64,000 bases of DNA from Escherichia coli (GTDB lineage Bacteria > Pseudomonadota > Gammaproteobacteria > Enterobacterales > Enterobacteriaceae). Shown here in pieces: positions 5,257 through 38,567 of this stretch (position 1 is its first letter; each line of letters begins with the position of its first letter). Location: the NCBI RefSeq assembly GCF_003334405.1, contig NZ_QOWM01000018.1; one strand, 5' to 3'. The translations under genes and the position numbers were made by a program. Below the pieces are notes generated by a model. That model was given only the letters and a program-made list of their open reading frames with translations, was not told where the DNA came from and searched no databases.

Positions 5257-8200
5257 ATGCCGTCTGTATCCCGCTACCGCACCTGGCTTGCCGTGCCTGC
5301 AGATGAAATAGAAGATCTCAAAAAAGCACATCCCCCGATGAACGGGCACACGCCCGTCATCTGGGACAAGGAGCACAAACTCTGGTTCGCCCGCCCGGGG
5401 GCAGACCTGTCCAGGCTGGACCGCTGGCTGCCCCGGCCACAGGACGTCTCCATGAACGGCAGTGATCCGGTCACCGAGTTTGCCCAGGTTCTGGAGAATG
5501 CCGGACTGGTTCTGAAAGAACTGCCGGTCATGGACGGGAAAATCCACCGTGTCCCGACCGCCGATGACAAAAAAGGACAAAAAAGTGGCGCATATCGCGG
5601 CTTCCTGGACGGCAGACCTGCCGGCTGGTACAGGGATTATCGCAGCGCGGATGATTCGCCGATCACCTGGACCTTCTCCGGCGGAGAACAGACAGATCCC
5701 CGCGCAAGACTCCACCTGAAAGCGCATTCAATGCAACGCAGGGAGGACGCGGAGCGGGAACTGAAAGCACAGTACAACCGACAGGCCGCGTATGCCCGCC
5801 GCTATGTCAACAAATGGCCGCAGGCCACAGCACATGAATACCTGACCCGGAAAGGCATTCAGGCTGCACCGGGGGTGCGGGTAAACAACAAAAATGAACT
5901 GGTTATTCCCTTCAGTAACCGTAACGGCGCGATACGCTCTTACCAGCGTATTCCGGTCACCGGGGGGAAAGATGCCCGCATCCTGATAGATTCGGAGAAA
6001 ACCGGTAACTGGTTTGCGCTGGGCACACCGCGCAACGGTCAGCCGGTACTGTTTGCCGAGGGCTATGCCACTGCGGCCTCCCTGCACGAAGCCACGGGCC
6101 TTCCGGTACTGATGACGGTGGATGGAGGCAACATGATTGCCGTTGCCGAAAATGCCCGGCAAAAGTGGACGCAAAGCCCCTTTATCTTCTGTGCCGACAA
6201 CGATCATGCAATCCGGGTTAACAAAGGTATCGTCAGTGCAACAAAAGCCGCAGAACTGACAGGAGGAACGGTCATCTTTCCTGCGTTCACCGATGCCGAA
6301 AAAGCGCAGGGACTGACCGATTTCAATGACCTGGACGCCAGCCGGGGACGGGCCGCTTTTCAGCATGTCATCAACGCCCAGTTAGAACATATCGGGGTTT
6401 CCACCCCCAACAGTAACACCCCGGAAATCCGGGAGGCACTGGTGATCGGCAACCTCGTTTTTACACCGGTCCACACTGAGGAAAAAACCATGACTCCGAC
6501 AGAATATCCTGAAACATCACCCGATACAGGGCACAGCCATGACCAGGGACCTTCTCTGCCGTCCGCCACGCAGCAGGAACAACCAGCTGCTTCCAGCAGT
6601 AACATTGCTGATGAAACACAGTCATTTACCAGTCACGCCACTGAAAATAACGGCAAAGATGAGCGGCACGCTGATAACGTTCAGGCGCAAACGGAAAGCT
6701 CTGTAGTTCAGGACTCCCCTGCAGAATCACCGGCGTCCCCGGAAAGTACAACGGCGTCTGCCCCTGATGAACCCGCTCATCCGGCGGAACCTCCGGAAAA
6801 AGTTGTCTCGGTGGCCACAGATAAAGACTGGCGTGAATTTGAAGCCGAACTGTCACAACCGGAAAAAAACGAGTCACAACAGGAATCCGGCACTTCACCT
6901 GAAATACCGGCCCCTGCTGCCGCCCCCGCATCCCCTGAAGACAGTCCCTCATCTGAAACCATGAATGAATCAGCCGAGCCATCACCTTCCCCTGATGCAG
7001 TCAAAGAGGAAATGACCGTGATGACGGAGCCTGATGACAAACAAAGCACCGGAATATCCCCGGATACTCCCCGGGAAGAGGCGGTCAGCCATGTAACTGA
7101 AGACATTCCCCTTCAGCCAGAACCGTTCCTTCCTGAGTCAGATGGCCCTGAAGAATACGAAGACTACAGCGCATATCAGGAGCTGATGAACAATGAAAAT
7201 CCTGAGCATCTGCAGGAAAACAGTGATATGCCGTCGCAACCGGACACAGGCCACGTTCAGGCAGATGAGTCAGAACTTCAGACCACAACAGATACTGCAG
7301 AACCGGCTGTCCGGGATGAACCCACTCCGCAGCAACCTGTTCAGAGCACATCACCTTCTGATAATACTTCTTCGTTTCTCGACAAAGCGCGTGGCCTTTT
7401 TACGCGTAAAAAAACGGATTCACAGGCGCATGAGAACAGTGATCCCACGCCCTCACAGGAAACCACGACGACCACACCGACACCTGACAGTATTGTCTAC
7501 GCCCCGGAACGTTCTGATGCACAGATATCGCTCAACATAGACGAAATTCTTAAAGAGCTTGACTGGGAAAAACGAGCAGACAGAACCGTCCTGTACAAAC
7601 TGGATGGCAAACCTGCCTTCATTGACCGGGTAAACCGGCTGGAAATGGTCAACGGTGCCAGCAATGACGATCGCAGCGTTCTGGCCGCACTTGCTGTGGC
7701 CACCAAATTTTATGGGGGCGTCATAGAGCTGACGGGCAGTGATGCCTTTAAGCAAAAAGCAATGCAGTTGATTATCGAGCACAACATCGATGTCCGGATG
7801 AAATTGCCAGATCAACGGGCTGAACTAGAAAAATTACGCAAGGAAATGGCTGTCAGTAAGGATGCTGTTGTCACCCATCAGCCAACACCGGAACTTAACC
7901 GGAATATCCCTGAACAACCGGCTGTCCCTGACCCCGTTCAGGAAAAAGAAGCCACACAATCCCCGGCGTCCCCTGCTGCCCCTGAAGCATCAACCGTCAG
8001 CACCGCTCCTGCATCATCACCGGCTGAACCAGGCAAAACGGCAGATGCAGCACCAGGTGAAGAACCTCCAGGAAAACTTCGCCCGGGAGAGAGCGTGACT
8101 GCCGTACTGCACAATTTTGGTCGTGCTGAATATGCACCCGGCAAAGGAGAAAGTTTCTTTGTTGAGCTTAAAAACCGCAGTGGCAGCAAACTCTACTGGG

Positions 8201-14302: not shown

Positions 14303-15086
14303 AGACTTGTGGTTGTATCCCTTTCCAGAAATTGATGTGGTTCATACACAGGAGCCACTGTTACCGGAACCGGAATTAACAACGCCCGGTCGATGTATCT
14401 GCTGCCGGCAAAACGTCAGGCACCGTTTCAGACTGGATGACTCATGGCCACTCAGACAGCTTACCGACACAATCAGTGACACACGAGTTCGTCTTAATAA
14501 GGCCACAGAACATCTGGATAAGTTAAAAAAGCGTGGTGAACCAGTCGCAACCGGCGAAAAGGAAAAGTACAACACGGCAGTAAAAGCCGCTGAACGGGCG
14601 CTTGAGCAGGCCCGTCTGTCTGCCAGACGTCTTTCACTCCGCCATGTACAGAAAGCTGAAATCACCAGTACAGAGCCGTTGTCAGAGAAAGAGCAGGAAC
14701 TGTTTCATGAAGACGGCCCGCCTTACAGCTTATGTGCTTTCTGCCACGCCTGGCATTCACTGAATGGTTATGCCGCAGCACAGGGCGTTATGGTATGGCT
14801 ACCCGACCTTCATCCATCCACGGTCGTGGCCCTTAACCGTCGTTCATTACAGGAAGTTTTCAGTAATGATAAGTTCCGGGTCCGGCGGGGACGAGAAGCG
14901 CTCTCTGCACTGATGCAAAACAGACTGGCGGTTGAGGATAAATTCCGCAGTTTCCGCCCGGCCGATTTCGCTGACGTTTTTCGTCGCTATCCACCTTCCG
15001 GTCGTTCGCCCCTGCGTGAAAAAATGAACGGGATTGCCCTGATTCTGACACCAGATTCATTCATCAAAAAAGAATTCGTTGATTGA
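14286..15086 (+). CDS. traT: Transfer protein TraT
   Basis: 266 aa; stop overlaps traU region; gene order. Confidence 0.45.
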   Translation: MQHSIKDLWLYPFPEIDVVHTQEPLLPEPELTTPGRCICCRQNVRHRFRLDDSWPLRQLTDTISDTRVRLNKATEHLDKLKKRGEPVATGEKEKYNTAVKAAERALEQARLSARRLSLRHVQKAEITSTEPLSEKEQELFHEDGPPYSLCAFCHAWHSLNGYAAAQGVMVWLPDLHPSTVVALNRRSLQEVFSNDKFRVRRGREALSALMQNRLAVEDKFRSFRPADFADVFRRYPPSGRSPLREKMNGIALILTPDSFIKKEFVD

Positions 15087-15175
15087 TTTTTCTTCATGCC
15101 ACTCCAGCGCGGGGTGGCATTAAAAAAATCAAACTGCACAAACCTCCCTCCTGTAAGTCCGGAGTTCCCTCACCT

Positions 15176-18100
15176 ATGAACATAAACCGTTTAATCTTCA
15201 CTATCGAAGACTGTCTGAACACGCTATCCCGTTTCTCTGTCGCAAGCAGTTTTGTTGAGTATTGCGATTTGCGTACTGTAATTGGTCTGGACAGACAGGA
15301 TCGTGAACGTCGCCCATGGCTGAATTCGCCCTATATTGCAGCCACAAAGCGTGGAGAATATCTCTCTGTCTTTGAAGTCAGCGGTGCTTTCAGGGAAATG
15401 GATGAAGCATCCGACCAGGCTGGCCCAGGTTCACTGGAATCGCTGATCACCAGCATGAGTGACAGCCTGAATACGGCATATAAAAACAGCGGTCATAAAA
15501 TCAGCTGCGTTTTCGAGCGTGACCCTGAAATGGGGAAAGAGGAAATCGAAGACATGGTCGCCCCACAAAAACGCTCACTGGCTAATACAGGTATCCAGTT
15601 ACAGGATGTGGTCGATGAGAAAGTCACAACACTGTCCCCATGGCTGGTCCGGGAGCGTTGCTGGCTGGCGATCTGGAGTGGACCCGACCTTATCAGCAAC
15701 AGCGATCGCACCGCCCATGATGAGCTTGTCAGAAGACTGGCTGAACGGGTACCGAAAGCACGCTTTGCCCAGTCCCCCTGGCAGTGGACCTTATCTGCAC
15801 TGAAAATCCGCCACGAAGCTTTTCTTGATAATGTGGAACAGGCACTGAGACATTCATCTGATGGCCTGATTCTCCGGCTTCTGGATATACACGAAGTCGG
15901 GCGTGAAATACGTCGTCAGACAGAACGGTACAGCACACCGCGTAACTGGCAACCCCACCTGCCTGAAGATGCCCAGCCAGCAGGATATCGCTGGACTGAC
16001 GATGAATCCGTACTACATGCTCCTTCATTGCATTTGCAGTTATTCAACACGCAGGTGACCACACAGGGCAACCTGGTTCAGGCGGGCGGACTCTGGCACG
16101 GAATGGTATCGATTACTTTACCTCCGCAAAATCTGCAGACGTTTAACGAACTGGTCCGTGCCGTCCCCCGCGCAGTCCCCTGGCGCATCAGAATGGATCT
16201 GATGCCCGGCGGGATGAAGGCTCTTAATCTGAAGAAAACGCTTCTGACTTACAGCAGCTTCATTTCTGCCGTTCGTCCAATGTATGAATCCGTTATGACC
16301 CTGGCGGCAACGGATGAAAAAGAACCTGTCTGCATAATGACCATCATGGCCTCCACGTGGGGAAAAACACGTGAAATATGCGCACGAAACCAGGCCATTC
16401 TGAAATCGGCCATTGAAGGCTGGGGCGTATGTGGCACCACAACAACATTTGGCGATCCCCGACGCGCCTGGGTGAATACCATTCTCGCGGCATCCGGAGG
16501 CTCCGGCCCGGTTCCCCTGTATCCCCCGTTGTCACATGCCATCTCGCTTTTCCCGCTTAACAGGGCAGGCTCTGTCTGGCGAGGCAAAGGGAATCTGATG
16601 TTACATACAGAAGACGGTTCCGCATTTGAGGTTGGTCTGGCGTCATCCCAACAAAATAAACATACAGAACTGGCACCAGGCGATCCGGGGCTGGGTAAAT
16701 CAGTTCTGATTAATACGTTGTCGGAAATACAGATATCATCTGCTCAGAAAAACCTGCCCTTCATTGCCTATATCGATAAAGGATACAGTGCTCAGGGACT
16801 GGTTCAGCTTATTCGCGACAGTCTTCCTCCGGAAAGAAAAGACGAAGCTGTCGGTATTATTCTGAGCAATGATCCGGAATACACCCGTAACCTTTTTGAC
16901 GTGATGTACGGCGCTAAAAAGCCTATTACGCCGGAAAAGAATTTCATGTCATCGGTGCTGTGTGCTCTCTGTGTCGATACCGGTACCGGTCAACCCTGTA
17001 ACCCCGGAGACACCCGACAAATTATCAACCAGCTTATCGAGCTGGCTTTTAAAGAGTACGGTGAAAATAATCCGCGACTTTATCGCGCCTCAACGGAAGA
17101 ACTGGTGGATTCAGCACTGCAGGACTCGGGACTGTATGAAAAACATGATGCAGCCTGGTGGGCCAGATCAACCTGGTTTGAAGTCCGGGATATGCTCCAC
17201 AATGCCGGGTATATCATGGCAGCTCAGCGGGCACATTATCAGGCAATGCCCCAGCTTCCCGAAGTGTCCTCGATGCTGGGCCATACCAGTCTCAGGGATG
17301 TTTTCGGTACTGTTCAGCGTGATGGTTCAAACGAGCTTCTGCTGGACTACATCCGCCGCGCCCTGGAGCAGGGACATAACGACTACCCCATGATATCCGG
17401 GTATACCCGGTTTATGATCAACCCGGAAACCCGGGTCATCGCTGTCGATCTGAATAATGTTGCCGGTGACAAAACGCCTGCAGGCAGGCTTAAAACCGGC
17501 ATCATGTACCTGCTTGCAGGTCAGATCGCCGGTGGTGACTTCACCCTGCCACAATACAGGGATGAAGTGTTAAAGCAGCTTCCACGGGAATACCATGAAA
17601 TCGCTCTTAAACGTATTAACCAACTTGATCAGGAGGTTAAGACAAAAGTTTATGATGAACTGCATAACGCCCGGGGCATTGACTTCATCTGGGAAAATCT
17701 GGATACCCAGGAGCGTGAGCAACGCAAGTTTGCTATCCGCACGGTTCTGAGTACGCAGTATCTGAGGGACTACCCGGAAAGCGTTCTTAAGTCAGCAAAT
17801 ACTCTCTGGTTACTGCGCTACAAACCCGAAGATATCCCCGTACTGAGGGATAACTTCAACGTTCCTGAATTTATGCTGAAACGCTTCCTGAAAATGCCGG
17901 AAGGCCCGGCACCAGATGGTAGTGGTGTTCCTGTTCTGGGAGTATTCAGGGTAAAAAGTGGCACACTTGCGAGAATACTCAAATTTACCGTCGGTCCACT
18001 GGAGCTATGGGCGCTGAACTCATCGCCAAAAGACAGTGCCCTGCGTAAAACACTGACAAATAAGTTAGGTTCAGTTCGGGCACGTAAGATTCTGGCCGAA

Positions 18101-18220
18101 AACTTCCCCAGAGGTTCTGCAACGTCATTAATTGAGCACCGGGCGGGCCAACATAACAGTGACAATGTTATTGAAGATCTGGCCTCGGAGCTCATCCGAA
18201 AACAGGGATACAATCTCTGA
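15176..18220 (+). CDS. traU: T4BSS ATPase TraU (DotO/IcmB-like)
   Basis: ATG at 15176 gives 1014 codons (track ORF starts at an upstream TTG); Walker-A-like GDPGLGKS; size and position. Confidence 0.8.
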   Translation: MNINRLIFTIEDCLNTLSRFSVASSFVEYCDLRTVIGLDRQDRERRPWLNSPYIAATKRGEYLSVFEVSGAFREMDEASDQAGPGSLESLITSMSDSLNTAYKNSGHKISCVFERDPEMGKEEIEDMVAPQKRSLANTGIQLQDVVDEKVTTLSPWLVRERCWLAIWSGPDLISNSDRTAHDELVRRLAERVPKARFAQSPWQWTLSALKIRHEAFLDNVEQALRHSSDGLILRLLDIHEVGREIRRQTERYSTPRNWQPHLPEDAQPAGYRWTDDESVLHAPSLHLQLFNTQVTTQGNLVQAGGLWHGMVSITLPPQNLQTFNELVRAVPRAVPWRIRMDLMPGGMKALNLKKTLLTYSSFISAVRPMYESVMTLAATDEKEPVCIMTIMASTWGKTREICARNQAILKSAIEGWGVCGTTTTFGDPRRAWVNTILAASGGSGPVPLYPPLSHAISLFPLNRAGSVWRGKGNLMLHTEDGSAFEVGLASSQQNKHTELAPGDPGLGKSVLINTLSEIQISSAQKNLPFIAYIDKGYSAQGLVQLIRDSLPPERKDEAVGIILSNDPEYTRNLFDVMYGAKKPITPEKNFMSSVLCALCVDTGTGQPCNPGDTRQIINQLIELAFKEYGENNPRLYRASTEELVDSALQDSGLYEKHDAAWWARSTWFEVRDMLHNAGYIMAAQRAHYQAMPQLPEVSSMLGHTSLRDVFGTVQRDGSNELLLDYIRRALEQGHNDYPMISGYTRFMINPETRVIAVDLNNVAGDKTPAGRLKTGIMYLLAGQIAGGDFTLPQYRDEVLKQLPREYHEIALKRINQLDQEVKTKVYDELHNARGIDFIWENLDTQEREQRKFAIRTVLSTQYLRDYPESVLKSANTLWLLRYKPEDIPVLRDNFNVPEFMLKRFLKMPEGPAPDGSGVPVLGVFRVKSGTLARILKFTVGPLELWALNSSPKDSALRKTLTNKLGSVRARKILAENFPRGSATSLIEHRAGQHNSDNVIEDLASELIRKQGYNL

Positions 18221-18834
18221 TGTGTACAATTCATATCACCCCACGCTGCCGGAGACCTGCCAGAGGGCAGGTATTTCTTAAAAAACTTGAGGTAAAAGGT
18301 GACAGTTTCTCATTCACTCTGCCGTCACGTGTCTTCAGGTTACATCCGGCCCCCAATCCCAGAGTGATATACGCCTCAGATGCCAGAACACAGGGAAAGG
18401 TTACAGGCATGCGGCTGTTGTTGCCGTCCAGCACAGATGAGCTGATAACAACGGCAATATGGCAGGTTTCTGTCCCGGATGAAGCACCATTCGACGTTCA
18501 GCATGTCATCCAGTGGATACTCCCTTCACCGCTGGCTTCGCTGATGTCCGATGATACCTGGTTATGGCCATCCGTTCCCGGAACGCCGGCACTGAGTGCC
18601 GGTGACTGGCCTGTCATGGATACTGACCCGTCCACCTTACGGCGCGTCAGACGTCGTTCTTTCAGCATCATCGATAACCGGAACAGGAAAGGTTATATCA
18701 CCAGGCGATATCAGTGTTTCCCACTGGCCCCACTACCTGAAGACAGAAAATACGACAGCCTTCCTGACCTTGTGCTCCACCCCGAGCAGGAGACAATAAA
18801 ATGCAAAGAAAAACATTACTCGCAGCCCTTATAG
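18220..18834 (+). CDS. traV: Transfer protein TraV
   Basis: ATGA overlap with traU stop; gene order. Confidence 0.45.
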   Translation: MCTIHITPRCRRPARGQVFLKKLEVKGDSFSFTLPSRVFRLHPAPNPRVIYASDARTQGKVTGMRLLLPSSTDELITTAIWQVSVPDEAPFDVQHVIQWILPSPLASLMSDDTWLWPSVPGTPALSAGDWPVMDTDPSTLRRVRRRSFSIIDNRNRKGYITRRYQCFPLAPLPEDRKYDSLPDLVLHPEQETIKCKEKHYSQPL

Positions 18835-20003
18835 CCATCCTGAGTGGAACGGCATGCCAGGCTCATGCTTATTCAGTCACCGTCGTCGCCAGCCGCCCCG
18901 TTGAACAGCAGGTCGTCCCCAGAATGGAGGCCATCAAAGGTGTGCTGAGTGACATACTGAGTACCCAGACAGCCACGGGTACCGCTATCAATCAGAACTC
19001 TGAAAAGCTGGCAAGTGTCATTGCCCAGAACGGACAGGCGACACGTCAGCAGATGATTTTCAGTAATGAAACTCAGCGCCTCGAGGAGGCACGGAAAAGC
19101 TTCACCGTGCCAGACTCCATCTGCAGTGAATCCGCATCAGGGATTGCAACAGAAAGCAAAAGTGCCTCAGCATCCGCAGCCTCAAAACTCAGTAAAGGTG
19201 GCGGTGTGAGCAACCGTAACATCCGCGACCGTCTGGCCAGCGCAGCAAACTCTCCCGTGCGGGAAGCTTATGATGGCGCGGCCATACACGCCAGTTACTG
19301 TACAGAAGCAGAATATGCACGTTTTGGAGGAACCGCCGTTTGTCCTTCTGTGGGCGAAATACCAGGTGGAGACAGTCAGGTACGCTCGATTTATCACGGC
19401 GCAGGTACAGCGGACACACCTGCGGCACTGACATGGGATCAGAAGCAAATAGATGCAGCGACGGCTTACATGAAAAACACTTCCCGCCCCTCTGCCGGTC
19501 GTGCTCTGGGTAAAGGAGAAGTGAATACCCAGAGTGGGCGAACCTACGTCGGACTCCAGAACGAATACAACGGCATCATTGATTCTGCGTCGAATCCCCA
19601 ACTGACGCTGATTGCTGACAGCACGCCTAATGAAACCACACGTAAAGCACTGGCTGAAACACTGCAGTCAGACTCAGCGGCCGCTTACTTCGACCAGGTG
19701 GCTTCACCAGAAGCAAAAGCACGGGGATATATGAGTACCCGTGAGTTTGAAGCTTTTGAGGCTGGCCGGCGCTACGCCAACACAGCATACCTGGTGGATT
19801 TACAGGAAATGCAGGGAGATAACCTGCTCCGTGAACTGGTAAGAATCACTGCGCAAATGAACTGGCAGCTGAACGACCTGAAAGAACAGATCCGCCAGGG
19901 TAATGTCATCTCTGGACAGCAACTGGCTCTGACCGCCCGCCAGTATTATGAAAAACAACTCGGTAGCCTTGAGAAAACAATCAATCAGGCAAACGCACGT
20001 TGA
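18801..20003 (+). CDS. traW: Transfer lipoprotein TraW
   Basis: Signal peptide with lipobox-like LSGTAC; 400 aa; gene order. Confidence 0.5.
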   Translation: MQRKTLLAALIAILSGTACQAHAYSVTVVASRPVEQQVVPRMEAIKGVLSDILSTQTATGTAINQNSEKLASVIAQNGQATRQQMIFSNETQRLEEARKSFTVPDSICSESASGIATESKSASASAASKLSKGGGVSNRNIRDRLASAANSPVREAYDGAAIHASYCTEAEYARFGGTAVCPSVGEIPGGDSQVRSIYHGAGTADTPAALTWDQKQIDAATAYMKNTSRPSAGRALGKGEVNTQSGRTYVGLQNEYNGIIDSASNPQLTLIADSTPNETTRKALAETLQSDSAAAYFDQVASPEAKARGYMSTREFEAFEAGRRYANTAYLVDLQEMQGDNLLRELVRITAQMNWQLNDLKEQIRQGNVISGQQLALTARQYYEKQLGSLEKTINQANAR

Positions 20004-20031: not shown

Positions 20032-20616
20032 ATGAATAAGTTACCGGAAAATTCAGACCAGACGAAAAACGTCAAAAAATCACCATCCATAACCCGCATA
20101 GCCACCCGGGGAATTATTAACATTTTTGTTCCTCTGATGGAGACTCGCCTGATAACGAATTCTGTACAGCATATGCTGGAACAACAAAGACGCAGGCTGG
20201 ACAGATTTCGTCAGGTAAATAATAAAAAGGCGCAACTCCACCTCACGTGGGAAGAAGCTCTGCAGGCCAGCCATATGTCAGTAGACGATCTGGATCGTCG
20301 TTTCCGCCGGCGCAGAACAGTATGGCGATTCTGTTGCTGGAGTCTGCTGGCCATCGCTTTGTTTCTCAGTGGTATGCTCTTTGCCGCCTCTTCATTACCT
20401 CTTACGACTCTGGTACGCGCCATCAGCACTCTTGTGTTGATACTGTCAGGCGTCGCTCTTTGTGCTTCCAGAGCACTGATTGTTACATACCGCCTCTGGC
20501 AGTTGCATGAACGAAAAGTCAGCGAACCCGAGCAGGGGACTTTCCGTGATTTTCTGAACGACCGCAATGGCTGGCGCAATGCCACATTAATTGCCGTAAC
20601 CAGTAAACAATACTGA
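20032..20616 (+). CDS. traX: Transfer protein TraX (membrane)
   Basis: Two TM segments in C-terminal half; gene order. Confidence 0.45.
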   Translation: MNKLPENSDQTKNVKKSPSITRIATRGIINIFVPLMETRLITNSVQHMLEQQRRRLDRFRQVNNKKAQLHLTWEEALQASHMSVDDLDRRFRRRRTVWRFCCWSLLAIALFLSGMLFAASSLPLTTLVRAISTLVLILSGVALCASRALIVTYRLWQLHERKVSEPEQGTFRDFLNDRNGWRNATLIAVTSKQY

Positions 20617-20643
20617 TCACGTCCAGATGCCAGTACCACTGGC

Positions 20644-22881
20644 ATGTCGCCATCCCCCTTAATTAAATCCTGTGTGGCCTTTGCCCATACGCAATTCTAT
20701 TCCGGAGTTACTGTGAAAATTTTACTTCGCGCACTCTGTGCAGGCCTTGCTATATCCTCACTGCCGGCAATGGCTTCAGTGACCTATCAGGATATTGTGT
20801 CTGCCGCAACCAATCCTGACGATCTGTCCCGTCAGGCGCTGGTCACGATATTCGGTGATGTGGTCACCAATCCACTGTCAACCAGCGCCCCCACCCTAAT
20901 CGGAAGCATGTTCGGGGCGTTCAACAGTATCATCGCCGTACTTGCCGTTGTCTGGTTTATGTTCATTGGTATCCGTCATGTTGTGCGTTCGGGGCATCAG
21001 GGACAGGTATTCAGCACCGGACGCGATATCGTCGGCACACTGAGTGTCGTTGCAGGTTTTCTGATGATCGTTCCAACCGGAAATGGCTGGAGTCTCGCTC
21101 AGCTCATTATGTTATGGGGCGCATCGATAATGGGGGTTGGGTCCGCCAATGTAATGGTGCAACTTGCCGCTGATAATATCGCAAATGGTTATTCAATGAC
21201 TGTACAGCCAGTTCAGGCATCCACACGAACAGCAGCGCGTGGCATTTTTGAAATGGAACTGTGTAAGTATGCGGTTAACGCAGGACTAAATGATTTTAAT
21301 CAGACGGCCAAATCCTCGACTTCACTGATGACAGAATCAGCTAAAACCGCCAGTGGTAATTACACTGTCACAGTATCCAATGGCAGCGGTATCTGTGGTA
21401 CAGCCAGCCTGTCAGTAGAAGGAAACGGAACAACAGATCAATCGACGATTGGAAAATTCTTTAATCCCTTCAGTAAAAACGAATACAGCGGTGTTATCTC
21501 AGCACAACGTGCAGCCATGGATAATATGATTAGCGACATGGACAACGCTGCCAGTGAGTTTGTGACAACATTTCTGGAAAAAAGAAATTCTGGCAACGGA
21601 ACATTGCCGGATATCGAGACACGGATTCAGAGAGCAGCCGACGAGTATGAGCGTGCTGTACAAAAATCGCTACCTATTGATAACGGAGAACAATCCAGGA
21701 AAGAAGCTCTCAAGTCTTATCTCACAACCTATGGATGGGTAACGCTTGGCGCGTGGTATCAGACCTTTGCCACTGCTAACCAGCGTCTGGCAGAGCTGGC
21801 TGACAGAGCTCCAGCTGTAACTTCAATGTCATCACTTGGGGAAGTTGGCGATACTGATTTATTTAGTGCTGTTATGGGGGCATACAAGACTCAATTACAG
21901 AACTCCACATATACTCCAACGATAGGAACGATAACAACTCAAGATGAAAGTAATGCAGCTAATAGCACAGACCCACAAAGTGTGGTCATGAAAAGTATAG
22001 CGCCAACCATATTAAAATGGACAAACCAAGCTGCTACTGAATGGTCAGGAACAGGAACAACCAGCAACCAAGTTAACCCATTAATTAAGATGAAAAACAT
22101 CGGCGATTATACATTGGGTACAACAGAAATTCTCTGGACAGGATATACAACTGTCAGAGTTCTCGCGACAATGGGTGATAATTCTATTTTCGGAAAGGCT
22201 GTTAATTTGTTCTCTGGATTACCTAAAGGATTTGTTGCTCTGCTGGATGCTGCAGCTCCCCCAATATATTTCTTGTTGTTCCTGTTGTTTTGTGCGGGTT
22301 TTTCCTTATCAATTTACCTACCATTTATACCATTCATTTTCTGGATGACAGGCATTGGGAACTGGATAGTAAGCGTATTAATAGGATGCACCGCCGGGCC
22401 TCTGTGGGCAGCAACACATCTAGGAACATCAGAGGACAGAGGAAGTCGAGCAGCTTACGGATATATATACTTAATTGACAGCATGATAAGACCACCTCTC
22501 ATGGTATTCGGTTTCTTTTTTGCCTCTGTCGCCATCATTGCCGTCGGCACAATATTAAACTCACTGTTTGGCGCAGCACTAGTTAACGTACAGGTAAAAT
22601 CATTAACAGGGATATTCAGCCTTGCCGGGTTCCTGCTAATTTACGCCCGTATGTGTACAACGTCTGTAGCTGCAATATTTGCTTTACAAGCATATCTTCC
22701 TGACCATGTTATCAATTTCTTGGGTGGTAGAGATGGTGTAAATACTCTTGGCAACCTCACCTCATCAGTAAAAGATATTTTTGCAGGTTCTAATAGAAAT
22801 ATTAGGCACAGCCCAGGAGTTAGAGAGGACAGACTAAAAAATGTCACAAAGGATGATAATAAAGATGGAATAAAAGGATAA
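20644..22881 (+). CDS. traY: Polytopic inner-membrane transfer protein TraY (DotA-like); 3' third is AT-rich
   Basis: 745 aa, many hydrophobic segments; position before excA; abrupt drop in GC from about 21800 onward. Confidence 0.7.
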   Translation: MSPSPLIKSCVAFAHTQFYSGVTVKILLRALCAGLAISSLPAMASVTYQDIVSAATNPDDLSRQALVTIFGDVVTNPLSTSAPTLIGSMFGAFNSIIAVLAVVWFMFIGIRHVVRSGHQGQVFSTGRDIVGTLSVVAGFLMIVPTGNGWSLAQLIMLWGASIMGVGSANVMVQLAADNIANGYSMTVQPVQASTRTAARGIFEMELCKYAVNAGLNDFNQTAKSSTSLMTESAKTASGNYTVTVSNGSGICGTASLSVEGNGTTDQSTIGKFFNPFSKNEYSGVISAQRAAMDNMISDMDNAASEFVTTFLEKRNSGNGTLPDIETRIQRAADEYERAVQKSLPIDNGEQSRKEALKSYLTTYGWVTLGAWYQTFATANQRLAELADRAPAVTSMSSLGEVGDTDLFSAVMGAYKTQLQNSTYTPTIGTITTQDESNAANSTDPQSVVMKSIAPTILKWTNQAATEWSGTGTTSNQVNPLIKMKNIGDYTLGTTEILWTGYTTVRVLATMGDNSIFGKAVNLFSGLPKGFVALLDAAAPPIYFLLFLLFCAGFSLSIYLPFIPFIFWMTGIGNWIVSVLIGCTAGPLWAATHLGTSEDRGSRAAYGYIYLIDSMIRPPLMVFGFFFASVAIIAVGTILNSLFGAALVNVQVKSLTGIFSLAGFLLIYARMCTTSVAAIFALQAYLPDHVINFLGGRDGVNTLGNLTSSVKDIFAGSNRNIRHSPGVREDRLKNVTKDDNKDGIKG

Positions 22882-22954
22882 TTTCAATAAAACAACCTTG
22901 CCATAAACACTCAATCGCATTAAAATATCGATGAGTGTTTATGGAGGGTTTATT

Positions 22955-23605
22955 ATGCAAATGGTAAAAACAATCAATAGATATCCTGCTTGGTGGACAT
23001 TATATTACGCCCTTAGATTTATATATTTCATAAGCATACCAGTGTTATCCATTTTTATTCTTTTCGGAGTGCTCTCCATTACATCTTCAAGATATGTGAC
23101 GCAAGAAGATTATATTTATACTTGCGTCTGTCTGTTTTTACTAATTGCTCCTGCAATATTGATGTATTCCCGAGCAAGCTCAAGAAAAGACAAAATAAAA
23201 AAAATTGTCGCGGAGATAAAAAACACCGGTTTTTATTCACCTGACAAAGAATATGAGGGACTGTCTTTTACTCAGGGCGTCTATTTTGGCGTGGATACCA
23301 AAAAAGGCACTATGCTGTATGCTCGTGCTTACCCTGGAAATATAATGGATATTATCGGCTTTGACATTGACAACTTCACACGCACTGTGACCGACGCCAA
23401 GACACTAGATATTTATACAAAATACATAAATATACCAATGGTCTCAATTCCGTCAGGATGCATCCATCCCAAAATGATGGCGGATACAATGCATGCAATG
23501 GCAGAAAGAGGATATGATTACCCTGTCGACTTTCCTCGCCTAATTCAGGAGAAGCGTAAGGAGTGGGAGCAGATTGCAGGCATGCCTGTAGCCGAAGTAT
23601 TTTAA
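22955..23605 (+). CDS. excA: Entry-exclusion membrane protein ExcA-like
   Basis: ATG with GGAGGG SD; N-terminal TM hairpin; immediately downstream of traY; AT-rich. Confidence 0.5.
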
Positions 23606-23624
23606 GATAAGCTCCCTCCATAAC

Positions 23625-23653
23625 AGCCGGTTCAAATGAGCCGGCTTTTGTTC
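23625..23653 (+). terminator. Intrinsic terminator after excA
   Basis: Hairpin AGCCGG-N10-CCGGCT followed by TTTTGTT. Confidence 0.5.
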
Positions 23654-23676
23654 ATTACAACAGATAACTTATGCCG

Positions 23677-23892
23677 TTACCGATAAATTCGACCAAGTGC
23701 TTTAATCGCAGCAATTTTTATTTCCATATCATCACTTTGACTCAATCTATGTAATTCACGCGTAATGTTCTCCGCCTGACATCGGCCTTCACCTAATGCA
23801 TAGATCACAGCAAGTGTAACGTCTTTTGATTTACTCTTCATCATTTCAAACAAGAAAGTATTAGCTATCGCAGGAGGCATGCTCATAATCAA
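23677..23892 (-). CDS. Small hypothetical protein
   Basis: 71-aa ORF, AT-rich, convergent with excA; alternative start codon; no recognised domain. Confidence 0.25.
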   Translation of the reverse strand: MIMSMPPAIANTFLFEMMKSKSKDVTLAVIYALGEGRCQAENITRELHRLSQSDDMEIKIAAIKALGRIYR

Positions 23893-24217
23893 TCCTCTTC
23901 ATGAAATAAACAATGGCACTCACTTACAAACAGGAGTCCACTATCGCAAGCGACTCAACTTAGTAATATCTCTCAATTTGAATGAAAAAACCAGATGGCA
24001 TGTGACAGGGAACCGTCCGCATGATGTCCGTGACTATTTAACCCCATAAGCTGATAAAACATGAATACCGGTATCTCAATGCGAAGAAATAATCTCCGTA
24101 GAATCCCCCATGAGAAAAATATCATATGGGAGAAAATCGCAATTATCACAGCCAGTGCATTCATTATTTTCGCTGTGCTCTGGCATTAATTATTTTCAAC
24201 ACAAAAAGGAAAAAACA

Positions 24218-24394
24218 ATGAATCTGGTAGACGCCTTTGTCAAAAAAGTAATATCCGGGCCGTATGAAGAATATGGAAAATGGTGGATAGATGTCGAATA
24301 CATTTCATGGGGTGTTCCCGGGAAAACAAGACTGATGTTTGACTCAAAGGAGCAGGCACTGGAAGTTAAGGAAGGGTACAAATTTTTAACGTGA
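24218..24394 (+). CDS. Small hypothetical protein (58 aa)
   Basis: ATG preceded by AAGGA-like SD; followed by a perfect 9-bp-stem hairpin at 24402-24438; no recognised domain. Confidence 0.25.
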   Translation: MNLVDAFVKKVISGPYEEYGKWWIDVEYISWGVPGKTRLMFDSKEQALEVKEGYKFLT

Positions 24395-24458
24395 GATCTC
24401 TTTTTGTTAAAGGGCAGGAAGCGGTCACCTCCTGCCCTTAGTTACGTTTCCAGGCTTA

Positions 24459-24554
24459 TCAGTCGATAAGTTCCCGGATCAGTTCCAGAACAGCAATCAG
24501 CGCGTTTGCAACGGCAACTACTGCCCTGAGAACGATGATTAACAGATTAATCAT
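24459..24554 (-). CDS. Candidate type I toxin: 31-aa single-helix hydrophobic peptide (DinQ/ZorO/TisB-like class)
   Basis: ATG with GGAG SD 6 nt upstream; MINLLIIVLRAVVAVANALIAVLELIRELID; leader contains a 24-nt element repeated in the divergent sRNA gene. Confidence 0.4.
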   Translation of the reverse strand: MINLLIIVLRAVVAVANALIAVLELIRELID

Positions 24555-24812
24555 CCGCTTCTCCATCACTGGAGGAAATCACCGTTGCTTACTCTTACAT
24601 TGCCTGTCACAACGGCACTTTCAGTGTTAGTTGAAAAGAGACTTCCTCCTGCCAGAGCACTGAACACAGCACCACCTGTTTGTTCAGCCAGGACTTAAAA
24701 TCTTGCATCCATAGTCCCGATGGATATCACGGCAGAAGTGTCGCCAGACAGAGCTAACCTGCGGATTATAAGGATGGTTGCTATCAAATGAACAGCTCGC
24801 TATTATAAGAAC

Positions 24813-24899
24813 GTTAGTTGAAAAGAGATTACCTCCGGTCAGGGCCACCAACTCTGTAACGGAACAGTAAAAAAACCGACCTCACCAGTCGGTTTTTTT
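24813..24899 (+). ncRNA. Candidate trans-acting antitoxin sRNA (~85 nt)
   Basis: Promoter TTGCTA-17-TATTAT at 24778-24806; 5' 24 nt (24814-24837) match 22/24 the + strand at 24626-24649 inside the toxin leader; ends in hairpin ACCGAC-N7-GTCGGT plus T7 (24875-24899). Confidence 0.4.
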
Positions 24900-25052
24900 A
24901 CATCTGTTGTTTCTCAAAATCCGCCCGACATGCCCGTCACACCGGGGAAACTCATGCTCTGAATCAGAACCAACCATCTCAACTTTGCCGTCTCCTGAAA
25001 AAACTGGCACATTCAGTTCGATAACTACCCATAAATACAGAGAGAAAATCCG

Positions 25053-25304
25053 ATGTCAGAAAAGTGGAGTAAAGAATTCGACTCTTGCTTTCAGGTGGGG
25101 AGCATAGAAGAAATTGCCGATGCTCTCGAGAAACGCAGCGGAAGCGAGGAAAATGCGTTAGCCATGCTGGCAATGACAGCCTTCACACTCATGACCCGAC
25201 GTGGTATCTGCGAAATGCAGAACGTGGCCCCCGATGGCAAAGGCATTCGGCTGGAGCTAATGGGCTTCAGGGAAAATGAAACAATACCGGATACGCTTCA
25301 TTGA
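25053..25304 (+). CDS. Hypothetical protein (83 aa)
   Basis: ORF with ATG start; followed by hairpin GGCGGCAG-N6-CTGCCGCC; no recognised domain. Confidence 0.3.
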   Translation: MSEKWSKEFDSCFQVGSIEEIADALEKRSGSEENALAMLAMTAFTLMTRRGICEMQNVAPDGKGIRLELMGFRENETIPDTLH

Positions 25305-25375
25305 AGAAGAAAGGGCGCAATGAGGTCAGCCTTCGCAACAAAGCGGCGGCAGAAAACCTGCCGCCGTGTTGCCCG

Positions 25376-25528
25376 TTAACGTTTAACTTCGTAGGCTAAC
25401 GTTGCCACAAGCACTGTGTTTCCCTGCTGGAGCCGGAGTCCGCAAAGCGAATCCCTCACCATCCAAACAAAACACAGAATCGTCACACAGATGACGATTA
25501 ACATCATTAAAAACGTTCGCTGTGGCAT
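25376..25528 (-). CDS. pndA: Hok-family type I toxin PndA (50 aa)
   Basis: Translates to MPQRTFLMMLIVICVTILCFVWMVRDSLCGLRLQQGNTVLVATLAYEVKR, Hok/Gef pattern; overlapped in another frame by the track ORF 25383..25667 (mok/pndC-like). Confidence 0.85.
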   Translation of the reverse strand: MPQRTFLMMLIVICVTILCFVWMVRDSLCGLRLQQGNTVLVATLAYEVKR

Positions 25529-25819
25529 CATAGCCCCTCCATTGCCTTACGGCGGTTATCGGGCTACTATAATGTTGTCTAGGCATTACAGTAGAGCCCT
25601 TGGTTGATTGATAAAAAAATCTCCAGGGGCTTTCTGCTGTATACCGTCCACAAAACGCTTTCGGCATACAGCCTCAAGCGCCCGCAGCTATTCTAACGAC
25701 TTTCGTATCTGCAACAATCCTTTTATCGCACGGCTAATTCCTCTGGTTAGCTCTTATCGCCTGCAAATAAATTTTTAACCTTTCCGTTTGATTTAAATTC
25801 CAGAAATGGAGACTTTGTC

Positions 25820-27028
25820 ATGTCTTACAATCGACAGCCTGTCGCAGAAGATCCTATGCAGATATGGGGCGCTGTTGGTGTCCTTCTTATCCTGCTGCTA
25901 TTCGTCATATGGTTATTCTTGCCGGAAGTGGTTTACGCCAGCTGCCTGATTCTTCATACCTTATGGGGACTGGTAGACTGGGGACCATTTCATAACTATG
26001 CAGCACCACGATACAACCTGCTTGCCATGACCGGTAACAACGCCGCCCACATAAGCTATAGCCAGTGGGTTAACGTCATGGAGCAGACCATAGGTATTCT
26101 GTGGATGTACCTCTTACCTGTGACACTCTGGTGTTTGTGGGAGTGGTATCAACATCCGGGACAAAGCCGTTTCACCCGCAGACCAGTAGATATTACCCGA
26201 CTGCCACACATCTTTGCTTCGTTGTCCCCTGCTATCGCCCCTGTACTGGCAGATGGTGATCCGGAAAAACTCTTTCATGGTGGCAAACGACCTGAACGGC
26301 GGGTTGCTCTCACCCCGGAAGCATTTGTCGAACAGCATACTCTCATCACCAATATGCAGCTCGATGTTGCAGCTGCAAGACGATGTTTCATGGCTCAGTT
26401 GGGTAAACCTTTAACGTCCTGGAAAGACATGGCACCACATGAAAAAGCGCTCTTTGCCATATTTGGCCTTCAGTATTTCCTGGATGATCGTAAGGCAGCA
26501 TTAAAGCTCATGGATACACTGAACCTCTCATGCAGAATTAAAAGCAAACGAGACAGCGGGAAATTCTGTACCCCTGTTTATTCACTGGCCAAATCAGCTT
26601 TCCAGAGAGTGATTAAAAGCAACGGAGCACAGCAATGGCTGAAACAACATCGCTACGTCCGCAGTGGGCTGGTCTGGCTGTATGCACATGACCTGCGGCT
26701 TACGCCACCCAACTGGATTTGGCTGAAAGGCGTGGACAGAACGCTGTTTTATGCATTACACCGCGCCAATACCACGAAAGGATTTATTGAAGGCGCTGGC
26801 GTGGTGGCCGTTGCACGTGCAGAGGCCGAAGCCATGCGTTTTGGCCTTCCCTGCCCTGAACCCTGTGTTGATGAAGCGGTGGAAGGCTTACGGCGGGATA
26901 TGCTCAGTCTCGGTCTTATCTGGGATGAACCACAACCAGATCGCGACCGGAAACGCCGCATCCTGACCAACTGGTCCCTCACCGACGACATCCTGCCCCG
27001 TACACCTGCTACAGACAACGAATTCTGA
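25820..27028 (+). CDS. trbA: Transfer membrane protein TrbA (DotM/IcmP position)
   Basis: 402 aa with N-terminal TM helices; precedes trbB-trbC. Confidence 0.55.
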   Translation: MSYNRQPVAEDPMQIWGAVGVLLILLLFVIWLFLPEVVYASCLILHTLWGLVDWGPFHNYAAPRYNLLAMTGNNAAHISYSQWVNVMEQTIGILWMYLLPVTLWCLWEWYQHPGQSRFTRRPVDITRLPHIFASLSPAIAPVLADGDPEKLFHGGKRPERRVALTPEAFVEQHTLITNMQLDVAAARRCFMAQLGKPLTSWKDMAPHEKALFAIFGLQYFLDDRKAALKLMDTLNLSCRIKSKRDSGKFCTPVYSLAKSAFQRVIKSNGAQQWLKQHRYVRSGLVWLYAHDLRLTPPNWIWLKGVDRTLFYALHRANTTKGFIEGAGVVAVARAEAEAMRFGLPCPEPCVDEAVEGLRRDMLSLGLIWDEPQPDRDRKRRILTNWSLTDDILPRTPATDNEF

Positions 27029-36980: not shown

Positions 36981-37044
36981 GGTTCCTCCTGGTGAGATGT
37001 CTGAACGTATCCTGCCGCCTGCACAGGCAGACGGCAAGGGTTAA

Positions 37045-37311
37045 TCAGTGGCAGACCCGCTCAATTTCAAGCGCGCGGAGCAGGTGGCCCCATTCGCTGA
37101 CTTTCATGGCGGGGATACGCACCCGCTTCTGCTCACTGCAGCGTCTGGCGATATGGCCGCTCATCGCCAGGACGTCCGGGTTAATCTCATCCTGTGCCAG
37201 CTCCTGACGTCTGAAGCGGGTATGGCGGTGCAGGGGTTTATTCTCCCGCAGGCACTCTTCACGCAGACGCTTTACATACTCGGCGGTTGCGAAGATAATT
37301 GATGGTCTCAT
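37045..37311 (-). CDS. Hypothetical protein (88 aa)
   Basis: ORF in the same transcription unit as the upstream 144-aa gene and Rpn; no recognised domain. Confidence 0.3.
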   Translation of the reverse strand: MRPSIIFATAEYVKRLREECLRENKPLHRHTRFRRQELAQDEINPDVLAMSGHIARRCSEQKRVRIPAMKVSEWGHLLRALEIERVCH

Positions 37312-37404
37312 GGCATAATCTCCATAGATAGTGATTGAGATGCCGGACTTCCTGGCGGGGAAGCGCCGGCGGAGAGAGGCAGGGTTTATCGCCCTGCCTC
37401 TTTT

Positions 37405-37839
37405 TCATTTCGGACAGCGACGCAGTGCCAGCGCGAGCGCTTTCATCTTCCAGCCTTCCGGCGTGCGGTACATCACCTTCCAGTAGCCGTCGATGAACAC
37501 ATAATGGAAGCGCACCTCTTCAGTGCTTTCAGTGGCAATAGCTTCCCTGAAAGAACGGTACTCACGCGCCTCACTGTCCATCCGGAAACCACTGTCACGT
37601 CCGTAATAAGCCGTCACACCGTCCACCGGGTTCTGAAGCGTATGCCCGGCGGGTTTGTCGCAACGGGGACCGAGGCAACGGATATCACCGTGTTCAACCA
37701 GGGCTTCGGCCTGCTGACCGGTGGCATAGTGGGTATGCAGGATGCGACCGTTCCAGGTCGGCTCACCGTGCAGGTGGCAGTAAACGGTACGGAACACCCC
37801 GTCGCGGCAAAAAACGGAAATCGTGCTGCTGACAGTCAT
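37405..37839 (-). CDS. Hypothetical Cys/His-rich protein (144 aa), first gene after ssi copy B
   Basis: ORF with SD; no recognised domain. Confidence 0.4.
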   Translation of the reverse strand: MTVSSTISVFCRDGVFRTVYCHLHGEPTWNGRILHTHYATGQQAEALVEHGDIRCLGPRCDKPAGHTLQNPVDGVTAYYGRDSGFRMDSEAREYRSFREAIATESTEEVRFHYVFIDGYWKVMYRTPEGWKMKALALALRRCPK

Positions 37840-37889
37840 GAAAACGTCTCCTTCTGCTGAATCAGGTCGCCGGGCCGACCGGTTGCTCC

Positions 37890-38430: not shown

Positions 38431-38567
38431 GAAAAATGCCTCACACCATGACGGGCAGGAAGGGCAGCGCCGCAGGCGCGGCCCTCCTGCATTTCAGGCA
38501 GGCGTAAGCCTGCCAGGGTTTTCCGGCGGCCTGGCAGGCCATACCCCCGCCGGAGCGGGGGAGTAAA

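What the first reader, a model, noticed from the sequence alone, without database searches (positions are those of the whole stretch)
21800..23605. Compositional break inside traY: AT-rich 3' traY plus excA look like a swapped entry-exclusion module
GC content drops sharply at about 21800 inside traY (DotA-like) and stays low through excA, whereas the 5' two-thirds of traY match the plasmid backbone. In I-complex plasmids the C-terminal part of TraY together with ExcA determines exclusion specificity, so this pattern suggests recombinational replacement of the specificity determinant.
Basis: partly seen in the sequence, partly recalled or inferred. Interest (0 to 1): 0.5.

Follow-up and report, generated by a model that had tools for sequence, protein, structure and literature searches.

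The report
Known IncI1 entry-exclusion allele cassette
The AT-rich second half of traY plus excA is the entry-exclusion specificity cassette of an IncI1 conjugative plasmid, here in a common and already described third allele, and the AT-richness is shared by every allele of the locus, so the finding is real but ordinary.

Summary
The GC drop is real. A change-point falls at 21851 (0.485 to 0.409) and recovery at 25116, and third-codon GC falls from about 0.51 to 0.33. It is not a mark of this plasmid, though. R64, ColIb-P9, R621a, an SL1344-type plasmid, a divergent Salmonella salamae plasmid and an IncK2 plasmid all show the same drop at the same place in traY.

Comparison with other plasmids, not composition, shows the module is a replaced allele. 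The window is 99-100% identical to IncI1 references up to 21896 (versus R621a) or 21603 (versus R64). It is 35-90% identical across 21897-23507, and about 99% identical again from 23508. Synonymous sites are saturated inside the cassette, against dS 0.01-0.03 outside it.

ExcA is 64% identical to R64 and 41% to R621a. This is the third IncI1 type already reported (PMC7066084, PMC8004404), and about 408 PLSDB plasmids carry it. The TraY central segment, the TraY C-terminal segment and ExcA are fully linked.

Verdict: a known polymorphism. Interest is low.

The parts
20032..20616 (+). traX (context; conserved backbone gene upstream of traY)
   Evidence: ORF. Annotated traX at the same place in matching plasmids. 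97-100% identical to R64, pSH1148_107 and pA333; 92-100% to pEc42_2 and 93-100% to R621a.
20644..22881 (+). traY, a DotA/TraY-family polytopic membrane protein of the type IVB conjugation system and the donor-side target of exclusion. The ORF from ATG 20644 gives 745 aa. The PGAP-style GTG start at 20713 gives 722 aa.
   Evidence: NCBIfam TIGR04346 DotA_TraY scores 560.5 bits against a cut-off of 100. Hydropathy shows a signal-like TM at aa 3-21, TMs in aa 61-149, a hydrophilic domain at aa 150-505, a TM cluster at aa 506-658 and a hydrophilic tail at aa 659-722.
20713..21603 (+). traY 5' backbone part, shared by all IncI1 allele types
   Evidence: 4-10 differences from R621a, R64 and pSH1148_107 over about 1 kb. 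dS is 0.014-0.033. GC is about 0.49.
21604..21896 (+). Sub-block that is R621a-like and diverged from R64, ColIb-P9 and pSH1148_107
   Evidence: 0 differences from R621a, against 32 from R64, 31 from ColIb-P9 and 22 from pSH1148_107. The same holds in four other carriers of this allele. dS against R64 is 0.55.
21897..22302 (+). TraY central variable segment (aa 396-530), covering the end of the large hydrophilic domain and the first TM of the cluster. This is a candidate ExcA recognition segment, the one used by R64-type ExcA.
   Evidence: Dense differences from R621a begin at 21897. Identity to R64 and R621a is 50-60% with pS 0.74-0.80. Identity to the S. salamae plasmid is 78-92% at 21900-22079 (60-nt windows from 21900); identity to pSH1148_107 is 85-100% at 22080-22439. 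408 PLSDB records are at least 95% identical.
22303..22752 (+). TraY transmembrane core (aa 531-680). The protein is conserved but silent sites are saturated.
   Evidence: dN is 0.03-0.07 and pS 0.55-0.79, giving dN/dS of 0.02-0.04. TM cluster by hydropathy.
22753..22881 (+). TraY C-terminal variable tail (aa 681-722). This is a candidate ExcA recognition segment, the one used by R621a-type ExcA.
   Evidence: dN is about 0.30 against R64, R621a and pSH1148_107, but 0.05 against the S. salamae plasmid, where dS is 0.65. Alignment.
22931..23605 (+). excA, the recipient-side entry-exclusion protein. It is 224 aa from ATG 22931 or 216 aa from ATG 22955. It has two N-terminal TM helices and a hydrophilic domain of about 140 aa.
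   Evidence: NCBIfam NF033891 surf_exc_IncI1 scores 275.2 bits against a cut-off of 100. Hydropathy. Identity is 64% to R64, 63% to ColIb-P9, 65% to pSH1148_107 and 41% to R621a.
23508..23605 (+). excA conserved 3' end (last 32 codons), which forms the right-hand recombination flank
   Evidence: The last dense difference is at 23507. After that there are 1-2 differences up to the excA stop at 23605, and 5-8 up to 24000, against all IncI1 types. The C-terminal peptide [25 protein letters not shown](M/I)PVAEVF is shared by all types apart from one residue (I in R64).
21851..25115 (.). Low-GC tract (mean about 0.41-0.44), which reaches beyond the variable cassette into the conserved excA-trbA spacer (small ORFs, dqlB, hok/pnd)
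   Evidence: Change-points. The profile runs parallel in five allele types.

Best explanation
Window 21897-23507 is the specificity cassette of the IncI-type entry-exclusion system. It comprises the central and C-terminal variable segments of TraY, the conserved TM core between them, and all of ExcA except its last 32 codons.

How it works (established for R64 and R621a, inferred here). ExcA sits in the inner membrane of a cell that already holds the plasmid. It recognises the cognate variable segment or segments of TraY from an incoming donor. TraY is the DotA/VirB6-like channel protein of the type IVB conjugation machine. Recognition blocks DNA entry. A plasmid with a different TraY/ExcA pair is not recognised and can enter.

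The window carries the third common IncI1 allele: ExcA 64% identical to R64 and 41% to R621a. It is the '12ST00846' variant of PMC8004404, an assignment I made from matching identity values (ExcA about 67% or less, TraY 91% or less), not from a direct sequence comparison. By direct DNA identity it is the type carried by the Norwegian broiler blaCTX-M-1 ST3 plasmids of PMC7066084.

The allele types are old. Silent sites between them are saturated, while the flanking backbone differs by 1-3%. The cassettes are moved among IncI1 backbones as linked units by homologous recombination in the conserved flanks: the traY 5' half on the left, and the excA 3' end plus spacer on the right. The allele is itself a mosaic. 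Its two TraY specificity segments are closest to a divergent S. salamae I-complex plasmid, and the stretch 22080-22439 is closest to the SL1344/pSH1148 type.

The low GC is an ancestral property of this locus across the I-complex and says nothing about a recent import into this plasmid.
For: - Gene identity: TIGR04346 560 bits and NF033891 275 bits. Gene order traW-traX-traY-excA is as in R64, ColIb-P9 and R621a.
- Junctions: against R621a there are 4 differences in 20600-21896, then dense differences from 21897. Against R64 dense differences start at 21604. The last dense difference is at 23507.
- Divergence: dS is 0.014-0.033 in traY aa 1-297, against pS 0.63-0.97 in the cassette. This includes the TM core, where dN/dS is 0.02-0.04.
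- Discrete alleles: for 21900-23500, 407 records are at least 99% identical, 1 is 95-99%, 1 is 80-90% and 1923 are 60-80%.
- Linkage: 408 records are at least 95% identical for the whole cassette, for the TraY central segment and for the TraY C-terminus plus excA.
- Shared junctions: four other carriers of the allele have the same junctions but different flanks.
- GC: the profile is the same in all alleles, in the S. salamae plasmid and in IncK2.
- Trans-lineage relation: window against S. salamae gives dS 0.75 (central) and 0.65 (C-terminal), against 1.48 in the traY 5' backbone; 60-nt mosaic map.
- Literature: the ExcA-TraY mechanism, and central versus C-terminal recognition, are attributed to Sakuma 2013 in PMC12365149, PMC8923210 and PMC11493245. 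Six ExcA and nine TraY variants are listed in PMC8004404. The 64%/38% ExcA type is in PMC7066084, and its plasmids MN419430 and MN419432 appear among the hits that are at least 98.9% identical.
- DotA forms a central VirB6-like protochannel that extends on contact (PMC12501162, PMC12857230).
Against: - No exclusion assay for this third allele was found in the library searched, so its status as a separate exclusion group is inferred from sequence.
- Which TraY segment its ExcA reads is unknown.
- The ExcA body (22980-23507) has no close relative outside the allele class (50-80% to everything), so its source is unresolved.
- The reason the locus is AT-rich in all I-complex alleles is not explained.
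- The Sakuma 2013 paper itself could not be read. Its result is taken from papers that cite it.
Confidence: 0.9

Rival explanations
1. Recent foreign acquisition specific to this plasmid: an AT-rich segment from a low-GC donor replaced the native traY 3' end and excA, and the GC break marks the insertion point.
For: The GC change-point at 21851 lies within 50 nt of the recombination junction at 21897.
Against: R64, ColIb-P9, R621a, pSH1148_107, the S. salamae plasmid and IncK2 pMbl536 show the same GC and GC3 drop at the same gene position. The low-GC tract continues for 1.6 kb into a spacer that is 98-100% identical in all types over 23601-24000. About 408 plasmids share the cassette with identical junctions.
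Confidence: 0.03
2. In-situ rapid divergence: the segment evolved fast in place under diversifying selection for new exclusion specificity, with no recombination.
For: dN is high (0.3-0.6) in the TraY variable segments and in ExcA. Escape from exclusion is a plausible selective force.
Against: Silent sites are saturated even in the TM core, where the protein is 93-97% conserved and dN/dS is 0.02-0.04. The borders are abrupt, going from 0.3% to about 40% difference within a few nucleotides. The cassette is a mosaic whose blocks are each closest to a different lineage. Flanks differ among carriers of the same cassette.
Confidence: 0.04
3. The compositional break is a by-product of protein composition (hydrophobic membrane segments rich in Phe, Ile and Leu) or of chance fluctuation, with no evolutionary meaning.
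For: The 3' half of traY encodes a TM cluster and ExcA has two TM helices. GC1 also falls.
Against: GC3 falls most, from 0.50-0.54 to 0.33-0.38. The tract includes non-coding spacer. Observed LLRs of 14-34 compare with at most 4.7 in block shuffles. A distant MPF_I plasmid with homologous traY-excA has a flat GC of 0.57, so the protein family does not force low GC.
Confidence: 0.03

Closest known systems
Third IncI1 TraY/ExcA variant: '12ST00846' type of PMC8004404 and the ExcA of blaCTX-M-1 IncI1-Iγ ST3 broiler plasmids in PMC7066084 (e.g. MN419430, MN419432; also pE17.16 NC_024975)
   Same: The DNA is 98.9-99.9% identical across the cassette. ExcA is 64% identical to R64 and about 40% to R621a, as published. 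TraY is at most 91% identical to other types. The junctions are the same.
   Different: The match to the '12ST00846' type rests on matching identity values, since no 12ST00846 sequence was aligned here. There are a few SNPs: about 0.6% against most carriers and 0.2% against NZ_LR883001. In the window the traY 5' flank (20601-21603) is slightly nearer R621a, whereas in pE17.16 it is nearer R64 and pSH1148.
R64 / ColIb-P9 (IncI1 reference) TraY-ExcA entry-exclusion system
   Same: Same genes, order, length and topology. The traY 5' half is 99-100% identical and so are the excA 3' end and downstream spacer. The GC profile is the same.
   Different: ExcA is 63-64% identical and TraY 86-87%. The central segment 21901-22300 is 51-61% identical in DNA (100-nt windows), and divergence already begins at 21604. 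A different exclusion specificity is expected but was not tested.
R621a (IncIγ) TraY-ExcA
   Same: traY is identical up to 21896, with 4 differences in 1.3 kb. The right junction is the same.
   Different: ExcA is 41% identical and shorter (204 aa). The TraY central and C-terminal segments are unrelated at silent sites.
S. enterica subsp. salamae plasmid CP053327 (MPF_I, unassigned replicon), a divergent I-complex relative
   Same: The TraY central and C-terminal variable segments and the ExcA N-terminus are 75-92% identical to the window. That is closer than its backbone (about 75-80%; dS 0.65-0.75 against 1.48). It has the same GC break.
   Different: The backbone is a different lineage. The ExcA body is only 50-78% identical, and the TM core is saturated at silent sites.
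IncL versus IncM traX-traY-excA replacement (pOXA-48 versus pCTX-M3)
   Same: Same principle: a divergent TraY/ExcA block in an otherwise similar backbone defines separate exclusion groups, and recombinational exchange has been proposed (PMC4416936, PMC12365149).
   Different: In IncL/M the block also includes traX. Here traX is backbone-like.
TraG-TraS (F) and TraG-Eex (SXT/R391) exclusion pairs
   Same: A recipient inner-membrane exclusion protein reads a variable segment of the donor's VirB6-like channel protein, and the two genes are adjacent (PMC11493245).
   Different: The protein families are unrelated. No membership is claimed.

Membership tests
DotA/TraY family (TIGR04346), IncI-type TraY | Profile HMM score above the curated cut-off | tested here: met
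   560.5 bits against a cut-off of 100, covering aa 38-671 of 722.
DotA/TraY family (TIGR04346), IncI-type TraY | Polytopic membrane protein with a large hydrophilic domain between N-terminal TMs and a C-terminal TM cluster | tested here: met
   Kyte-Doolittle scan shows TMs in aa 3-149, a hydrophilic domain at aa 150-505, a TM cluster at aa 506-658 and a tail at aa 659-722. This is hydropathy only; the orientation was not determined.
DotA/TraY family (TIGR04346), IncI-type TraY | Position in the tra operon between traX and excA | tested here: met
   ORF order. Same order in R64, ColIb-P9 and R621a.
IncI1-type surface/entry exclusion protein ExcA (NF033891) | Profile HMM score above the curated cut-off | tested here: met
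   275.2 bits against a cut-off of 100, with full-length match.
IncI1-type surface/entry exclusion protein ExcA (NF033891) | Membrane anchoring through N-terminal hydrophobic helices, and a gene immediately downstream of traY | tested here: met
   Two hydrophobic segments at aa 16-46 and aa 51-76. excA starts 50-74 nt after the traY stop.
IncI1-type surface/entry exclusion protein ExcA (NF033891) | Reduces plasmid entry when expressed in recipients, specifically for donors with the cognate TraY | not testable with these tools
   This needs mating assays. None were found for this allele in the literature searches.
R64/ColIb-P9 exclusion type | ExcA and TraY variable segments near-identical to R64 or ColIb-P9. 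ExcA identity is 98% between R64 and ColIb-P9, and 93-94% between them and the pSH1148 type. | tested here: not met
   ExcA is 63-64% identical and the TraY central segment is about 50-60% identical in DNA.
R621a (IncIγ) exclusion type | ExcA and the TraY C-terminal segment near-identical to R621a | tested here: not met
   ExcA is 41% identical. The TraY C-terminus has dN 0.30 with silent sites saturated.
Third IncI1 exclusion allele (12ST00846 / ST3 broiler-plasmid type) | ExcA about 64-67% identical to R64 and about 38-41% to R621a; TraY at most 91% identical to other types; DNA near-identical to published carriers | tested here: met
   ExcA is 64% and 41% identical, and TraY 86-91%. Carriers MN419430 and MN419432 are 98.9-99.8% identical. 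Published values are in PMC7066084 and PMC8004404. No 12ST00846 sequence was aligned, so that label rests on the identity values.

The most novel reading that the evidence does not exclude
The most novel reading not excluded has three parts. First, exclusion cassettes are exchanged across deeply diverged I-complex backbones. The window's two TraY specificity segments share more recent ancestry with a S. salamae-type plasmid (dS 0.65-0.75) than the backbones do (dS about 1.5), and they were later re-assorted with an SL1344-type TM segment and a unique ExcA body. Second, the conserved AT-richness of traY 3'-excA in IncI1, IncK2 and the salamae lineage marks a very old, balanced polymorphism comparable to O-antigen or restriction-specificity loci. 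Third, the allele would define an experimentally uncharacterised third exclusion group in which ExcA may read both TraY segments.
Probability: 0.45. Interest if true: 0.3.

Novelty: already known. Interest (0 to 1): 0.15.

Why it matters
Entry-exclusion type decides which IncI1 plasmids can enter a cell that already carries one. The cassette type therefore affects co-residence, recombination between resistance plasmids, and epidemiological typing. This allele is the one carried by widespread blaCTX-M-1 ST3 plasmids (PMC7066084). The allele and the principle are already published. What this analysis adds is base-level junctions, the silent-site evidence for old alleles, the complete linkage of the three variable parts, and the demonstration that the GC break is a locus-wide ancestral feature and so cannot be used to call a swap.

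Tried and rejected
1. I tried using the GC break as evidence of import. I rejected it after finding the same profile in every allele type and in IncK2.
2. I looked for a donor of the cassette among 72,556 PLSDB plasmids with sensitive blastn. Nothing falls between 90% and 99% identity except one record. The only closer-than-background relatives are S. salamae-type plasmids (CP053327, CP053415), and only for the TraY segments and the ExcA N-terminus. No source was found for the ExcA body.
3. I tried to read Sakuma et al. 2013 directly. It is not held, so I relied on citing papers.
4. I searched for exclusion assays on the third allele and found none.
5. I considered in-situ positive selection and rejected it on saturated dS and dN/dS of 0.02-0.04 in the TM core.
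6. Change-point position depends on context. With only 10 kb of flank the first step, at traY+531 (about 21244), is picked instead of 21851. The decline is therefore stepwise, not a single sharp edge.
7. I did not run the large protein-database, structure-prediction or metagenome tools. The question was settled without them.
Full report
**What is there.** The window carries an IncI1-type transfer region. The ORFs are:
- traU, 15083-18220
- traV, 18220-18834
- traW, 18801-20003
- traX, 20032-20616
- traY, 20644-22881 (745 aa from the first ATG; 722 aa from the GTG at 20713 that PGAP uses in matching records)
- excA, 22931-23605 (224 aa; 216 aa from the ATG at 22955)
- trbA, 25820-27028

TraY matches NCBIfam TIGR04346 (DotA/TraY) at 560 bits against a cut-off of 100. 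ExcA matches NF033891 (IncI1-type surface exclusion protein) at 275 bits against a cut-off of 100.

**Checking the observation.** The GC drop is real.
- In 300-nt windows GC goes from 0.48 (21500-21799) to 0.41 (21800-22099). It bottoms at 0.31 (22850-23149) and recovers to 0.52 by about 25100.
- Likelihood-ratio segmentation of 2001-36000 gives change-points at 19942, 21851 (0.485 to 0.409, LLR 14.0) and 25116 (LLR 34.5). The maximum in 30 shuffles of 50-bp blocks was 4.7.
- The effect is at silent sites. GC3 is 0.50-0.54 in traU through traX, 0.456 in the traY 5' half, 0.334 in the traY 3' half, 0.382 in excA and 0.511 in trbA.
The break lies at 52% of traY, not two-thirds. The decline is stepwise, with a first step near 21250 that is the one picked in a 10-kb context. 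The low-GC tract continues about 1.5 kb past excA.

**Is the composition diagnostic of a swap? No.** I extracted the same region from six other plasmids and compared it with the window:
- R64 (NC_005014)
- ColIb-P9 (NC_002122)
- R621a (NC_015965)
- pSH1148_107 (SL1344-type)
- a divergent S. enterica subsp. salamae plasmid (CP053327)
- the IncK2 plasmid pMbl536

The four IncI1 references follow the window's GC profile almost window for window. Their traY 5' half is 0.49, the 3' half 0.40-0.44 and excA 0.39. The salamae plasmid has its change-point at traY+1182, against +1138 in the window. IncK2 drops from 0.56 to 0.49 to 0.43. A more distant MPF_I plasmid, pCRKP-1215_1, is flat at 0.57, so the protein family does not force low GC. 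The AT-rich state is therefore an ancestral property of this locus in the I-complex, present in the reference type as well.

**Is the module nevertheless a replaced allele? Yes, on comparative evidence.**
- Against R621a the window has 4 differences in 20600-21896, then dense differences from 21897.
- Against R64 the dense differences begin at 21604.
- Against all IncI1 types the last dense difference is at 23507. After that only 5-8 differences occur up to 24000.
- Inside the cassette, DNA identity to R64 and R621a is 51-61% at 21901-22300, 74-92% at 22301-22700, and 33-78% from 22701 to 23500.
- Nei-Gojobori estimates give dS of 0.014-0.033 for traY aa 1-297. Silent sites are saturated (pS 0.63-0.97) everywhere in the cassette. 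That includes the TM core (aa 531-680), where the protein is conserved and dN/dS is 0.02-0.04.
- A high dS next to a nearly identical backbone, with abrupt borders, means old alleles placed by recombination, not fast in-place evolution.

**Which allele.**
- ExcA is 64% identical to R64, 63% to ColIb-P9, 65% to pSH1148_107 and 41% to R621a. TraY is 86-91% identical to all of these.
- This matches the ExcA described for blaCTX-M-1 IncI1-Iγ ST3 broiler plasmids, which is 64% identical to R64 and 38% to R621a (PMC7066084).
- By matching identity values, it also fits the '12ST00846' variant, one of six ExcA and nine TraY variants catalogued in PMC8004404 (ExcA at most about 67% and TraY at most 91% to other types). 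No 12ST00846 sequence was aligned here.
- Two of the Norwegian plasmids, MN419430 and MN419432, are among the hits that are 98.9-99.8% identical.
- In PLSDB, 407 records match 21900-23500 at 99% or better. One more is at 95-99%, one at 80-90%, and 1923 are at 60-80%. The allele classes are therefore discrete.
- The TraY central segment alone gives 408 records at 95% or better. The TraY C-terminus plus excA also gives 408. The three variable parts are completely linked.
- Four other carriers (NZ_LR883001, pE17.16, pCTX-M-1.B1, p435354_2) share both junctions and the R621a-like block 21604-21896, but they differ in their flanks. The allele arose once and has since moved among backbones, or the backbones have recombined around it.

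**Internal mosaic.** In 60-nt windows the window is closest to:
- R621a up to 21896
- the salamae plasmid at 21900-22079 (78-92%; other IncI1 types 33-68%)
- pSH1148_107 at 22080-22439 (85-100%)
- roughly all types equally at 22440-22679
- the salamae plasmid again at 22680-22979 (75-87%)

The ExcA body, 22980-23507, has no close relative (50-80% to everything). Window against salamae gives dS of 0.75 in the central segment and 0.65 in the C-terminal segment, against 1.48 in the traY 5' backbone. These specificity segments have therefore crossed between diverged I-complex lineages.

**How it works.** Citing papers report the results of Sakuma et al. 2013, which I could not read directly. ExcA in the recipient interacts with TraY of the donor to block entry (PMC8923210, PMC11493245, PMC4416936). 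R64 ExcA targets the central region of TraY, and R621a ExcA targets the C-terminal region (PMC12365149).

Hydropathy places the window's central variable segment (aa 396-530) at the end of the large hydrophilic domain and the first helix of the TM cluster. It places the C-terminal variable segment (aa 681-722) in the hydrophilic tail. ExcA has two N-terminal hydrophobic helices, a variable hydrophilic domain and a conserved last 32 residues.

TraY's Legionella homologue DotA forms, with IcmX, a pentameric VirB6/VirB5-like protochannel that extends into a trans-envelope conduit on target contact (PMC12501162, PMC12857230). This makes it plausible that donor TraY reaches the recipient membrane where ExcA sits. 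That last step is my inference. That the window allele forms its own exclusion group is also inferred from sequence. I found no assay for it.

**Verdict.** The allele and the principle are published, so the novelty class is 'already known'. The small additions here are the exact junctions (21604, 21897 and 23507/8), the silent-site evidence, the full linkage of the three variable parts, the salamae-like origin of the TraY specificity segments, and the I-complex-wide conservation of the AT-rich state.

Noticed in passing
window 22931-22955: The excA start codon is ambiguous. The ORF from ATG 22931 adds MSVYGGFI in front of the MQMVKT start used in most PGAP records. The diverged S. salamae plasmid keeps [13 protein letters not shown] in frame. 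PGAP itself uses the long form in pE17.16 (675 nt) and the short form elsewhere.
   Followed up: partly
window 23606-25800: The excA-trbA spacer (small HEAT-like ORF, dqlB, hok/pnd) is a mosaic of its own. Positions 24001-24100 are only about 60-62% identical to R64, pSH1148_107 and pEc42_2, and 47% to pA333. Positions 24500-24900 are about 100% identical to R64 but 36-92% to the pSH1148, pEc42 and pA333 types. The window lacks the finQ gene that L001, L003 and R621a carry before trbA.
   Followed up: partly
L001 (NZ_LR883001) about locus 7030-7700, corresponding to window about 23672-23690: The plasmid with the closest traY-excA (99.8%) carries extra sequence of several hundred bases right after excA that the window lacks.
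   Followed up: no
window 36000-60000: The best PLSDB match for the leading/maintenance region (parB-like, umuC, parM, DUF1281 and others) is only 96.7% identical, whereas the tra region is 99-100% identical to many plasmids. The plasmid's parts have different histories.
   Followed up: no
window 37001-50000: A long stretch has GC of 0.55-0.62, well above the tra region at about 0.51. Further low-GC patches (0.41-0.44) occur at 52-55 kb and 58-60 kb.
   Followed up: no
window 18801-19000 (traW 5' end): A short patch of clustered differences (about 91-97% identity in 100-nt windows, 90% against L001) from R64, R621a and most sampled plasmids sits in otherwise 99-100% identical traV/traW. In 18901-19000 the window matches pA333 exactly, which suggests another small recombination patch.
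   Followed up: no
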